This document shows positions 46,301 through 49,300 of a stretch of 64,000 nucleotides of DNA, in pieces. Source of the DNA: Escherichia coli (GTDB lineage Bacteria; Pseudomonadota; Gammaproteobacteria; Enterobacterales; Enterobacteriaceae); the NCBI RefSeq assembly GCF_002854065.1, contig NZ_CP024147.1; one strand, written 5' to 3'. Made by a program: the position numbers. How positions within the stretch are numbered: the stretch's first letter is position 1; the number at the start of each line of letters is the position of its first letter.

Positions 46301-49300
46301 CATGACACCTGGTTGCCTGGCCCGGAAAGCATAATGAGCCAGGGTTCGCAGGTGGCGGGGTTCAGTACCGATTATTTAATCGACCTTGTCACACGCTTTA
46401 TTAACTGGCAGATGATTGGGGCCATTTTTGTTTTATTAGTGGCCTGGTTATTCTTGTCACAATGGATTCGCATTACCGTTTTTGTGGTTGCCATACTGCT
46501 ATGGCTGAACGTACTTACCCTGGCGGGACCAAGTTTCTCCTTGTGGCCAGCCGGTCAACCGACGACCACTGTAACAACGACGGGTGGTAACGCAGCGGCA
46601 ACCGTTGCGGCGACGGGTGGCGCACCGGTAGTGGGTGATATGCCCGCACAAACTGCACCGCCAACAACGGCGAACCTTAACGCCTGGCTGAATAATTTCT
46701 ATAACGCGGAGGCGAAACGTAAATCGATCTTCCCGTCTTCGCTGCCCGCTGATGCTCAGCCATTTGAACTACTGGTGATTAATATCTGTTCGCTTTCCTG
46801 GTCGGATATAGAAGCCGCCGGGTTGATGTCGCATCCGCTGTGGTCGCATTTCGATATTGAGTTCAAGAACTTTAACTCCGCCACCTCCTACAGTGGCCCG
46901 GCAGCGATCCGTTTACTGCGCGCCAGCTGCGGGCAGACTTCGCACACTAATCTGTATCAACCGGCAAATAACGACTGCTATCTGTTTGATAACCTGTCGA
47001 AACTGGGCTTTACCCAGCACCTGATGATGGGATATAACGGCCAGTTCGGCGGTTTTTTGAAAGAAGTTCGCGAAAATGGCGGCATGCAGACTGAATTGAT
47101 GGATCAAACAAATCTGCCGGTTATTTTGCTGGGCTTTGATGGTTCGCCGGTTTATGACGATACCGCCGTGCTTAACCGCTGGCTGGACGTTACCGAAAAA
47201 GATAAAAACAGCCGTAGTGCCACGTTCTACAACACGCTTCCACTGCATGACGGCAACCATTATCCGGGCGTCAGCAAAACAGCGGATTACAAAGCGCGGG
47301 CGCAGAAATTCTTTGATGAACTGGACGCCTTCTTTACTGAACTGGAGAAATCGGGTCGTAAAGTGATGGTGGTCGTGGTGCCGGAACACGGCGGCGCGCT
47401 GAAGGGCGACAGAATGCAGGTATCTGGCCTACGTGATATCCCTAGCCCGTCTATCACCGACGTCCCCGTTGGGGTGAAATTCTTCGGCATGAAGGCACCA
47501 CATCAGGGGGCACCGATTGTCATCGACCAACCGAGCAGCTTCCTGGCTATCTCCGATCTGGTGGTTCGCGTTCTTGATGGCAAGATTTTCACCGAAGATA
47601 ATGTTGACTGGAAAAAACTCACCAGTGGGTTGCCACAAACAGCACCGGTCTCCGAGAACTCAAATGCAGTAGTTATTCAATACCAGGATAAACCGTACGT
47701 TCGCCTGAACGGCGGCGACTGGGTGCCTTACCCGCAGTAAGCACGAAAAAGGCCGCAGAGTTTCACCCCTGCGGCCTGGTCCGGGCGCAAATTGCCATTA
47801 CGGCAGCCTGACGCCCGCATGACACGTTACTTCCGCTTGTTCAGCCAGTTCACGATCATACTGGCAAGAATGCCAGCAATGACCGGAGTCGCTAAATCAT
47901 GCCAGAAGGCCATGCCCAGTTCTGCGAGCGTCATATAGCCGCCTGTGTTGTAATGACAACGTTTCGCGGCTATTCTTGAATGGTCTAGGTTCAAGATTAG
48001 CCCCCGTGGTGTTGTCAGGTGCATACCTGCAACGTGCGGGGGTTTTCTCTCTCCAGCAACCAATGCCACCAGGGATTAAGCCCCCGCAACATTGCGCATC
48101 ACCGGAATCCTTCCGGCTTATCGCTGATTCTACGACTGTTTTTCTGTTCCGGAATCCGTCACGTCTTCACTCTGTGCTGCGCATTCCGCAGAATATTATC
48201 CGCTTGCAATCGTTGCATTTTTCTTACGAAAAAGGCCGCAGAGTTTCACCCCTGCGGCCTGGTCCGGGCGCAAATTGCCATTACGGCAGCCTGACGCCCG
48301 CATGACACGTTACTTCCGCTTGTTCAGCCAGTTCACGATCATACTGGCAAGAATGCCAGCAATGACCGGAGCCGCTAAATCATGCCAGAAGGCCATGCCC
48401 AGTTCTGCGAGCGTCATATAGCCGCCTGTGTTGTAATGACAACGTTTCGCGGCTATTCTTGAATGGTCTAGGTTCAAGATTAGCCCCCGTGGTGTTGTCA
48501 GGTGCATACCTGCAACGTGCGGGGGTTTTCTCTCTCCAGCAACCAATGCCACCAGGGATTAAGCCCCCGCAACATTGCGCCTCACCGGAACCCTTCCGGC
48601 TTGCCGCTAATTTTACGATTGCTTTTTACTGTCAGCACTCGGCAATCTTCCTCATTGCGTGATGCCTTCCAGCTTAATTTCTTAATTTGCAATAGTTGCA
48701 GTTCATATCCGGGCTGACTCCAGACTGGTAGTGAAATGCGCAATTTTGTAGAATTGCGCCTCCTCGCGACCTCCCCAGTGAATCTGTTGCCTCATTTTTT
48801 ACATACTGCGTATTCGACTTCTCCACCTGTTGCGCAAGAGAAACTGGGTTTATTCATTTTTGCGAGGCCGACTTCTTTCTGGACAGGACTTTATGCAGCA
48901 CAACACACTACCGAAACACGATCAGAAATTGCCGTTTACACGCTACGACTTCGGCTGGGTTTTATTATGCATAGGCATGGCGATTGGTGCCGGAACCGTA
49001 CTGATGCCAGTACAAATTGGCTTGAAGGGAATTTGGGTATTTATTACCGCAGCGATCATTGCTTATCCTGCCACCTGGGTAGTGCAGGACATTTATTTAA
49101 AAACCCTTTCTGAAAGCGATTCCTGTAATGACTACACCGATATTATCAGTCATTACCTGGGGAAGAACTGGGGAATTTTCCTCGGGGTTATCTACTTTTT
49201 GATGATTATCCACGGGATTTTTATCTACTCTCTCTCCGTGGTTTTCGACAGCGCCTCGTACCTGAAAACCTTCGGTTTAACCGATGCCGATCTTTCACAA

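What the first reader, a model, noticed from the sequence alone, without database searches (positions are those of the whole stretch)
47743..48700. Tandem duplication of the ldr/rdl type I toxin-antitoxin unit, with copy-specific upstream sequence
Two 483-bp units lie head to tail between bcsG and yhjV. Each carries a 35-codon Ldr toxin ORF on the minus strand (47827-47934 and 48310-48417), an Rdl-like structured antisense RNA on the plus strand, and a hairpin terminator. About 350 bp of each unit is nearly identical: I see one substitution, which changes toxin residue 16 (Thr in copy 1, Ala in copy 2). The roughly 130 bp on the promoter side of each toxin transcript (from about 48095 and 48578) diverge strongly after the first 45 bp. 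K-12-type genomes have a single ldr/rdl unit at this locus (ldrD/rdlD) as far as I recall, with the tandem array at a different locus. The near-identity argues for a recent duplication or gene conversion, and the divergent promoter-proximal segments could give the two toxins different regulation.
Basis: partly seen in the sequence, partly recalled or inferred. Interest (0 to 1): 0.5.

Follow-up and report, generated by a model that had tools for sequence, protein, structure and literature searches.

The report
Ordinary two-copy ldrD/rdlD toxin-antitoxin array
The window really does carry two head-to-tail copies of the ldrD/rdlD small-toxin/antisense-RNA module between bcsG and yhjV, but most E. 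coli genomes carry two to four copies at this site, so this is routine, published copy-number variation; only the near-identity of these two copies is recent, and gene conversion explains it.

Summary
Two 483-bp units lie at 47743-48225 and 48226-48708. Each has a 35-codon Ldr ORF (Pfam PF13940), a full-length rdlD RNA (Rfam RF01813, 89 bits) and a terminator hairpin. The 355-bp cores differ at one base, which gives Thr16 in copy 1 and Ala16 in copy 2. The last ~128 bp of each unit diverge.

The arrangement is not unusual. Among 5,426 complete E. coli genomes, the inter-unit junction sequence occurs in 3,303 (61%). That implies roughly 39% with one copy (K-12, O157), 10% with two (about 510-550 genomes, including Nissle 1917, O121:H19 and O169:H41), 34% with three (BL21/B) and 17% with four or more. 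A 2017 paper already reports three ldrD/rdlD pairs between bcsG and yhjV in BL21(DE3).

The "copy-specific upstream sequence" is the conserved internal spacer of these arrays versus the conserved terminal spacer next to yhjV, which matches the K-12 LDR-D upstream sequence. A non-coli Escherichia also has a two-unit array with an internal-type spacer, so the architecture is old.

What is recent is homogenisation. Sister strain 100416 has identical flanks, but its two cores differ at 8 sites. The window lineage overwrote unit 1 with unit 2 sequence over at least unit columns 157-291.

Verdict: already known, low interest.

The parts
47743..48225 (.). LDR-D-type unit 1, next to bcsG: 355-bp core plus the internal-type spacer
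   Evidence: TRF period 483; alignment A1; 96.3% identical over 401 bp to K-12 LDR-D and about 80% to K-12 LDR-A/B/C
48226..48708 (.). LDR-D-type unit 2, next to yhjV: 355-bp core plus the terminal-type spacer
   Evidence: 97.3% identical over 485 bp to K-12 LDR-D
47827..47934 (-). ldr copy 1: 35 codons plus stop, the rare Thr16 allele (MTLAELGMAFWHDLATPVIAGILASMIVNWLNKRK)
   Evidence: ORF; Pfam PF13940 at 90.4 bits; this exact peptide was seen on only 8 contigs
48310..48417 (-). ldr copy 2: 35 codons plus stop, the common Ala16 allele (the sequence RefSeq annotates as WP_001295224.1 in the related genomes)
   Evidence: ORF; Pfam PF13940 at 93.2 bits; this exact peptide was seen on at least 1000 contigs
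47983..48048 (+). rdl copy 1: antisense RNA opposite the ldr 5' UTR, lying 49 nt upstream of the ldr start codon in mRNA terms
   Evidence: Rfam RF01813 at 89.2 bits, full length; its own terminator at 48026-48040 followed by a T-run
48466..48531 (+). rdl copy 2, identical in sequence to copy 1
   Evidence: Rfam RF01813 at 89.2 bits; lies in the identical core
47750..47777 (-). ldr copy 1 intrinsic terminator hairpin (11 pairs) followed by TTTTT
48233..48260 (-). ldr copy 2 intrinsic terminator hairpin. It sits just upstream of the ldr copy 1 promoter region
48098..48225 (-). Internal-type spacer ('tail1'). It holds the putative ldr copy 1 promoter: a -10-like TAGAAT at 48132-48127, with an inferred transcription start near 48120
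   Evidence: The 169-bp junction query matches 3,303 of 5,426 E. coli genomes. It is absent from the K-12 ldrABC locus. The -10-like hexamer is conserved in all spacers aligned. The transcription start is inferred, not measured
48581..48708 (-). Terminal-type spacer ('tail2'), orthologous to the K-12 LDR-D upstream region. It has a -10-like TAAAAT at 48615-48610
   Evidence: 95.5% identical to K-12; conserved in E. whittamii and Escherichia sp. E1V33
47889..47889 (.). The only core difference between the units (T here, C at 48372). It causes Ala16Thr in copy 1
47899..48033 (.). Minimum gene-conversion tract in unit 1 (unit columns 157-291). Here the window and CUWW06 carry unit-2-type bases, while sister strain 100416 keeps a different unit-1 allele
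   Evidence: Variable-site table. 100416 has 0/400 mismatches to the window on each flank, yet its own two cores differ at 8 sites

Best explanation
This is a two-unit allele of the LDR-D (ldrD/rdlD) type I toxin-antitoxin array that sits between bcsG and yhjV in Escherichia. Each unit encodes, on the minus strand, a roughly 375-nt ldr mRNA with a long 5' UTR, a 35-residue hydrophobic Ldr toxin ORF and a terminator. On the plus strand each encodes a 66-nt Rdl antisense RNA, complementary to the ldr 5' UTR, which holds toxin translation in check. The number of units at this locus varies in E. coli from 1 to at least 4, and probably 5, through unequal homologous recombination between units. Every internal junction examined carries one conserved spacer type, and the last unit carries another. 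The window's lineage inherited a two-unit array. It then homogenised the two cores by gene conversion from unit 2 into unit 1 (tract at least unit columns 157-291). After that, copy 1 acquired one substitution (Ala16Thr). Because the two rdl genes and their target regions are identical, each Rdl can pair perfectly with both ldr mRNAs. Shown here: the anatomy, the family membership, the population frequencies and the conversion signature. Taken from the literature: peptide toxicity and repression by Rdl. Inferred: the ldr transcription start and -10 element, and the direction and mechanism of homogenisation.
For: Anatomy and family matches. Locus and subtype: K-12 LDR-D is 96-97% identical, whereas K-12 ldrABC is about 80% identical and lacks the internal spacer. 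Copy numbers were verified in annotated records: 1 in K-12, NEB5-alpha and O157; 2 in CUWW06, EcN, O121, D2, O169:H41 and 100416; 3 in YJR, DETEC-P622 and T7 Express/B; 4 in W2-5 and IAI39. Frequencies: the internal junction occurs in 3,303 of 5,426 genomes at 6,994 places, median 2 and maximum 4 per genome. 2,634 genomes cover at least 80% of a 1,768-bp query, which only 1- and 2-copy loci can do. The spread sample gave 6/60 two-copy, 23/60 one-copy and 30/60 with three or more. Antiquity: Escherichia sp. E1V33 has two intact units at bcsG-yhjV with an internal-type spacer; E. whittamii and Citrobacter sedlakii each have one unit at the same locus. Conversion: within-genome core differences are usually 3-22 per 355 bp, but 1 in the window and 0 in CUWW06. 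100416 shares identical flanks, unit 2, and an internal spacer differing at one base (column 356), but has a different unit 1 core. Literature: BL21(DE3) has three pairs between bcsG and yhjV (PMC5435950). Lineage-specific Ldr duplications are described in PMC2887945. The mechanism and the ldrX hypothesis are reviewed in PMC4147584.
Against: There are no expression data for this strain, so whether both units are transcribed is unknown. The simple sigma-70 scan found no consensus promoter in the region, so the ldr promoter assignment rests on a conserved -10-like hexamer and on an mRNA length recalled from Kawano et al. 2002, which could not be read here. Copy-number fractions were derived indirectly from coverage and place counts plus samples, and RefSeq complete genomes over-represent some clones. 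Gene conversion cannot be told apart from two successive unequal crossovers.
Confidence: 0.9

Rival explanations
1. A recent de novo tandem duplication of a single K-12-like LDR-D unit in this strain, followed by rapid divergence of the promoter-side ~130 bp.
For: The cores are 99.7% identical, as expected just after a duplication.
Against: A fresh duplication would copy the spacer as faithfully as the core, yet columns 401-483 are only 49% identical. The internal spacer is 94-100% identical to the internal spacers of unrelated E. coli and occurs in 3,303 genomes. Sister strain 100416 has the same two-unit frame with diverged cores. A different Escherichia species has the same architecture.
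Confidence: 0.02
2. The cores were homogenised by two rounds of unequal crossing-over (expansion to three units, then contraction to two) rather than by non-reciprocal gene conversion.
For: Arrays of 1-4 units with shuffled unit alleles show that unequal exchange is frequent at this locus. For example, YJR unit 1 equals W2-5 unit 3, and the K-12 unit equals T7 Express unit 1.
Against: It needs two events with suitably placed crossover points. The outcome is indistinguishable from conversion with the present data.
Confidence: 0.2
3. An assembly artefact: a single unit or a longer array was mis-assembled as two.
For: Near-identical 483-bp repeats can be mis-resolved by short reads.
Against: The spacers are distinct and anchor each unit. 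An independent assembly is 99.98% identical over 4.9 kb with the same structure and SNP, with two further similar places not shown. The complete genomes CUWW06 and 100416 have two units. More than 500 complete genomes show two units.
Confidence: 0.02
4. The two spacer types give internal and terminal units different promoters or regulators, so the array is functionally differentiated rather than merely redundant.
For: Sequence upstream of about -25 relative to the inferred start is only 49% identical between the spacer types, yet each type is conserved across strains. Both keep the -10-like hexamer and a distal TGCAAC-N-ATTGCA palindrome.
Against: There are no expression data. The middle part of the internal spacer is poorly conserved between E. 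coli and Escherichia sp. E1V33 (78% overall against 95.5% for the terminal spacer), which suggests weak constraint there.
Confidence: 0.25

Closest known systems
E. coli K-12 LDR-D (ldrD/rdlD, b4453/b4454) between bcsG and yhjV
   Same: Same locus, same flanking genes and same unit. Unit 2 is 97.3% identical over 485 bp, including the upstream spacer. The toxin differs only at residue 3 (Leu versus Phe), plus Thr16 in copy 1. The rdl is full length.
   Different: K-12 has one unit and lacks the internal spacer. The window has two units.
E. coli B / BL21(DE3) three-pair ldrD/rdlD array (PMC5435950) and the 2-4-unit arrays in other E. coli
   Same: Same locus, same 483-bp period and same internal/terminal spacer architecture.
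   Different: The number of units differs. In most arrays the unit cores differ by 3-22 nt and carry different Rdl 5'-tail alleles. In the window the cores are homogenised to 1 nt.
E. coli K-12 LDR-A/B/C array (ldrABC/rdlABC) at kdsA-chaA
   Same: The same family of type I toxin-antitoxin long direct repeats, arranged in tandem.
   Different: A different locus, a period of about 535 bp, only about 80% core identity, and no similarity to the internal spacer. The window's array is not a copy of it.
ibs/sib and other tandemly duplicated type I toxin-antitoxin loci (Fozo et al. 2010, PMC2887945)
   Same: A small hydrophobic toxin plus a cis-antisense RNA, duplicated within one intergenic region, with lineage-specific copy number.
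   Different: Unrelated toxin and RNA sequences. For Sib/Ibs, cognate-pair discrimination has been demonstrated (PMC2943612, known here only from the abstract returned). For Rdl/Ldr alleles it has not.

Membership tests
Ldr toxin family (Pfam PF13940) | A roughly 35-residue peptide matching the Ldr_toxin profile over its full length, above the curated cutoff | tested here: met
   90.4 and 93.2 bits against a cutoff of 27, residues 1-35 on profile positions 1-35
rdlD antitoxin RNA (Rfam RF01813) | A match in sequence and structure above the gathering score, full length | tested here: met
   Two matches of 89.2 bits against 50, model positions 1-66 of 66
ldr/rdl type I toxin-antitoxin module | The antisense RNA is encoded opposite the toxin mRNA 5' UTR and does not overlap the start codon or ribosome-binding site (PMC4147584) | tested here: met
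   rdl at 47983-48048 (+) versus the ldr start codon at 47934-47932 (-), a gap of 48 nt. The geometry is the same in unit 2
ldr/rdl type I toxin-antitoxin module | Peptide overproduction is toxic and the cognate Rdl represses it | not testable with these tools
   Known for K-12 LdrD/RdlD from the literature (PMC4147584). The window's peptides differ from LdrD at 1-2 residues
ldr/rdl type I toxin-antitoxin module | Both RNAs are transcribed from each unit | not testable with these tools
   No expression data for this strain. PMC5435950 shows RdlD antisense RNAs in a transcriptome figure (Fig. 3B) when reporting the three-pair BL21(DE3) locus. No consensus sigma-70 promoter was found by the simple scan
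LDR-D subtype (as opposed to LDR-A/B/C) | Located between bcsG and yhjV and more similar to K-12 LDR-D than to LDR-A/B/C | tested here: met
   96-97% identical to LDR-D versus about 80% to LDR-A/B/C; flanking genes
Multi-unit LDR-D array common in E. coli | Units with a 483-bp period joined by the conserved internal spacer, with the last unit followed by the terminal spacer | tested here: met
   The internal spacer is 94-100% identical to those of YJR, DETEC-P622 and CUWW06, and the terminal spacer is 95-100% identical. The junction occurs in 3,303 of 5,426 genomes

The most novel reading that the evidence does not exclude
Units within LDR-D arrays may normally be kept distinct in the Rdl 5' single-stranded tail. 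In 41 units from 17 genomes, 8 of 18 tail positions are polymorphic versus 43 of 337 elsewhere in the core. Each Rdl would then preferentially control its own ldr mRNA, as in Sib/Ibs, while internal and terminal spacers give the units different promoters. On that reading, the conversion event in the window's lineage collapsed two insulated modules into one cross-reacting pool. Nothing here tests discrimination or expression.
Probability: 0.15. Interest if true: 0.4.

Novelty: already known. Interest (0 to 1): 0.08.

Why it matters
It matters little as a discovery. Multi-copy ldrD/rdlD arrays at bcsG-yhjV are published for BL21(DE3) and are annotated by PGAP in thousands of genomes. The useful by-products are three corrections of perspective. 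First, the single K-12 copy is the minority state (about 39% of complete genomes). Second, the array has a fixed internal/terminal spacer architecture that predates E. coli. Third, the units evolve by shuffling and occasional conversion. Anyone studying Ldr toxins in non-K-12 strains should expect 2-4 near-identical copies here, and deleting "ldrD" alone may not remove the function.

Tried and rejected
1. A genome-contig scan for two rdl 17-mers spaced 452-480 nt apart found nothing. The rdl 5' tail turned out to be too polymorphic for exact matching. The single 17-mer scan gave 28 stretches, mostly chance matches in unrelated taxa. The main E. coli representative genome was not among them. 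Only the Escherichia, Citrobacter and Pseudocitrobacter loci were used.
2. The original Kawano et al. papers (PMIDs 11939563 and 23131729) are not held. The ldrD mRNA length and 5' end therefore come from memory and are marked as inference. One literature query failed on syntax.
3. The consensus promoter scan found no sigma-70-like site on either strand. The promoter assignments rest instead on conserved -10-like hexamers.
4. I considered that the internal spacer might derive from the ldrABC locus. This is rejected: no BLAST match to K-12 kdsA-chaA.
5. I considered the weak Rfam 'sok' match on the ldr 5' UTR (30.6 bits, below the gathering score of 59). It is not treated as membership.
6. Exact per-genome copy-number tables could not be extracted. 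The fractions come from two whole-collection counts plus systematic samples.

Full report
**Observation.** The sequence at 47743-48708 is a perfect-register tandem pair with a period of 483 bp (TRF score 1661; the repeat finder; MAFFT alignment A1). It is the only sizeable tandem repeat in the 64-kb window. Identity by segment:

| Unit columns | Identical bases |
|---|---|
| 1-355 (core) | 354/355 |
| 356-400 | 37/45 |
| 401-483 | 41/83 |

The one core difference is 47889 T versus 48372 C. It changes Ldr codon 16 from GCT (Ala, copy 2) to ACT (Thr, copy 1).

**Anatomy.** On the minus strand each unit has a 35-codon ORF (47827-47934 and 48310-48417). Both ORFs match Pfam Ldr_toxin over their full length (90.4 and 93.2 bits, cutoff 27). 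Each ORF is followed by an 11-pair GC-rich hairpin and a T-run (47777-47750 and 48260-48233). On the plus strand, a 66-nt rdlD RNA with its own terminator lies 48 nt upstream of the ldr start codon in mRNA terms (47983-48048 and 48466-48531; RF01813, 89.2 bits against a gathering score of 50, full model). This is the geometry described for ldrD/rdlD: the antisense RNA overlaps the long 5' UTR, not the ribosome-binding site (PMC4147584). The flanking genes are bcsG (46061-47740) and yhjV (48893-50164).

A TA[G/A]AAT hexamer is conserved in every spacer aligned, at 48132-48127 and 48615-48610 on the minus strand. It would place the ldr transcription start near 48120 and 48603 and give an mRNA of about 377 nt. 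That agrees with the roughly 370-nt ldrD mRNA I recall from Kawano et al. 2002. This is inference. The simple promoter scan found no consensus sigma-70 site, and the original paper is not held.

K-12 is not typical, however. Copy numbers read from annotated records:

| Units at bcsG-yhjV | Strains checked |
|---|---|
| 1 | K-12, NEB5-alpha, O157 |
| 2 | CUWW06, Nissle 1917 (EcN_Sk), O121 RM8352, D2, O169:H41, 100416 |
| 3 | YJR, DETEC-P622, T7 Express (B strain) |
| 4 | W2-5, IAI39 |

Two whole-collection searches give population figures.
- A 169-bp query spanning only the inter-unit junction (48078-48246) cannot seed on the terminal spacer and has no match in K-12 ldrABC. It hits 3,303 of 5,426 complete genomes at 6,994 places, median 2 and maximum 4 per genome.
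- A 1,768-bp query with 400-bp flanks can reach 80% coverage only in 1- or 2-unit loci. It does so in 2,634 genomes.

Combining the two gives these estimates:

| Units | Genomes (approx.) | Share |
|---|---|---|
| 1 | 2,120 | 39% |
| 2 | 510-550 | 10% |
| 3 | 1,850 | 34% |
| 4 or more | 900 | 17% |

The systematic samples agree. One search gave 6/60 two-unit, 23/60 one-unit and 30/60 with three or more. In one search, 9, 20 and 11 of 40 genomes had 1, 2 and 3 junctions. Caveats: these counts are indirect, and RefSeq complete genomes over-sample some clones.

The literature already records the polymorphism. [quoted passage not shown] Fozo et al. 2010 describe LdrD-group and LdrB-group paralogues with later lineage-specific duplications (PMC2887945).

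**The 'copy-specific upstream sequence'.** The spacer after unit 2 is the orthologue of the K-12 LDR-D upstream region (95.5% identical). The spacer after unit 1 is the internal spacer found at every inter-unit junction examined. It is 94-100% identical across unrelated strains, and both internal junctions of three-unit arrays are of this type.

The two types are distant paralogues. Both keep the -10-like hexamer and a distal TGCAAC-N-ATTGCA palindrome, but they diverge in between.

Evidence from other species:
- Escherichia sp. E1V33, a separate species-level representative whose bcsG is 89% identical, has two intact units at bcsG-yhjV. Its internal spacer shares the distal ~60 nt of the E. 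coli internal type (78% identity overall). Its terminal spacer is 95.5% identical.
- E. whittamii and Citrobacter sedlakii each carry a single unit at the same locus.

The locus is therefore old, and the two-spacer array architecture predates E. coli. It did not arise in this strain.

**What is recent.** Core differences between units of one genome are usually 3-22 per 355 bp: EcN 3, O169 8, 100416 8, D2 11, O121 14, YJR 12-22. In the window the difference is 1, and in CUWW06 it is 0.

Strain 100416 is the informative comparison. It matches the window at 0/400 positions on each flank, has the same unit 2 (one core difference from window unit 2) and an internal spacer identical except at column 356. 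Its unit 1 core, however, carries a different allele at columns 157, 247-257, 267 and 291, close to O169 unit 1. In the window and CUWW06 those positions carry unit-2-type bases. The simplest account is a non-reciprocal transfer from unit 2 into unit 1 spanning at least columns 157-291 (window 47899-48033). That tract covers part of the ldr ORF and most of rdl. The Ala16Thr substitution in the window came later. CUWW06 has a T at column 200 in both units where the window has C in both, a second concerted change. Two successive unequal crossovers could give the same result and cannot be excluded.

Unit alleles are also shared between strains at different array positions. YJR unit 1 equals W2-5 unit 3. 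The K-12 unit equals EcN unit 1, D2 unit 1 and T7 Express unit 1. This points to frequent expansion and contraction. It also suggests that the K-12 single copy is a collapsed array consisting of a first-unit core joined to the terminal spacer.

**The Thr16 allele.** The exact Thr16 peptide is rare: 8 contigs, against at least 1000 for the Ala16 peptide. It occurs in several backgrounds, in arrays of 1, 2, 3 and 4 units with flanks about 98% identical to the window. It is therefore recurrent or moved by recombination. One draft assembly, GCA_035821435.1, is 99.98% identical to the window over 4.9 kb and has the same structure. This argues against an assembly artefact.

**Mechanism.**
- From the literature (PMC4147584): overproduced LdrD kills E. 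coli and condenses the nucleoid. Co-expressed RdlD relieves this. Repression is thought to act like hok/sok, through a leader ORF (ldrX) in the 5' UTR, but this is unproven.
- Shown here: both units are intact in every recognisable element, and their rdl genes and target regions are identical. Either Rdl is therefore perfectly complementary to both ldr mRNAs.
- Inferred: the doubled dosage of toxin and antitoxin is balanced. Any regulatory difference between the copies would have to come from sequence upstream of about -25 of the ldr promoters.

**Verdict.** Interest is low.

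Noticed in passing
window 47983-48000 and 48466-48483 (Rdl 5' tail); units in loci L001-L020: Across 41 LDR-D units from 17 genomes, nucleotide diversity peaks in rdl (pi 0.064, against 0.0315 for the whole core and 0.0195 for the ldr ORF). 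8 of 18 positions in the Rdl 5' single-stranded tail are polymorphic, versus 43 of 337 elsewhere (Fisher p=0.0015). Units within one array usually carry different tail alleles. This hints at cognate-pair discrimination as in Sib/Ibs. The sample is not random.
   Followed up: partly
window 48204-48216 and 48687-48699 (read on the minus strand); also L006, L036, L044: A palindrome TGCAAC-N-ATTGCA lies about 75 nt upstream of the putative ldr -10. It is conserved in both spacer types and in E. whittamii and Escherichia sp. E1V33, although the surrounding sequence diverges. It may be a regulator binding site; none was identified.
   Followed up: no
L006 (K-12), L015 (T7 Express/B), L008 (EcN), L010 (D2): The single K-12 LDR-D core is identical (0/355) to the first unit of the B-strain, EcN and D2 arrays. 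These genomes share the same BcsG and YhjV protein accessions. The K-12 single copy therefore looks like a recent collapse of a multi-unit array rather than the ancestral state.
   Followed up: partly
window 48015-48092 (-) and 48498-48575 (-); also 47827-48069 (-): The ldr 5' UTR contains a 25-codon ATG ORF (MLRGLNPWWHWLLERENPRTLQVCT) that overlaps the Rdl target, with no Pfam match. There is also an in-frame GTG-initiated 80-codon extension of ldr. Either could correspond to the proposed leader ORF ldrX (PMC4147584). This was not resolved.
   Followed up: no
window 47932-48085 (-) and 48415-48568 (-): The ldr 5' UTR gives a full-length but sub-threshold match to Rfam RF01794 'sok antitoxin (CssrC)': 30.6 bits against a gathering score of 59, E=2.7e-4. 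It may reflect hok/sok-like leader structure or chance.
   Followed up: no
L013 (E. coli IAI39) 1-1530: In IAI39 the bcsG gene next to a four-unit array is truncated at its 5' end by an IS4 insertion. The four Ldr peptides comprise three different alleles.
   Followed up: no
L001 (CUWW06) units 1 and 2, unit column 200: Both CUWW06 units carry T at column 200, whereas both window units carry C. This is a second concerted change in this lineage after the main conversion.
   Followed up: no
L016-L022: The rare Thr16 Ldr allele appears at different array positions (first, middle or only unit) in lineages whose flanks are about 98% identical to the window. It has arisen recurrently or been moved by recombination.
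   Followed up: partly
L044 (Escherichia sp. E1V33) 3080-3479 versus 4569-4966: Across the array, the 5' end of yhjV is 97.5% identical to the window but the 3' end of bcsG only 89%. This suggests a recombination breakpoint at or near the LDR array between species.
   Followed up: no
window 12727-12840, 6877-6948, 54327-54369, 56613-56694, 56791-56864: The other Rfam matches in the window are ordinary E. coli features: GadY, ES205, ES036 (CssrF), naRNA4 (CssrE) and a tRNA.
   Followed up: no
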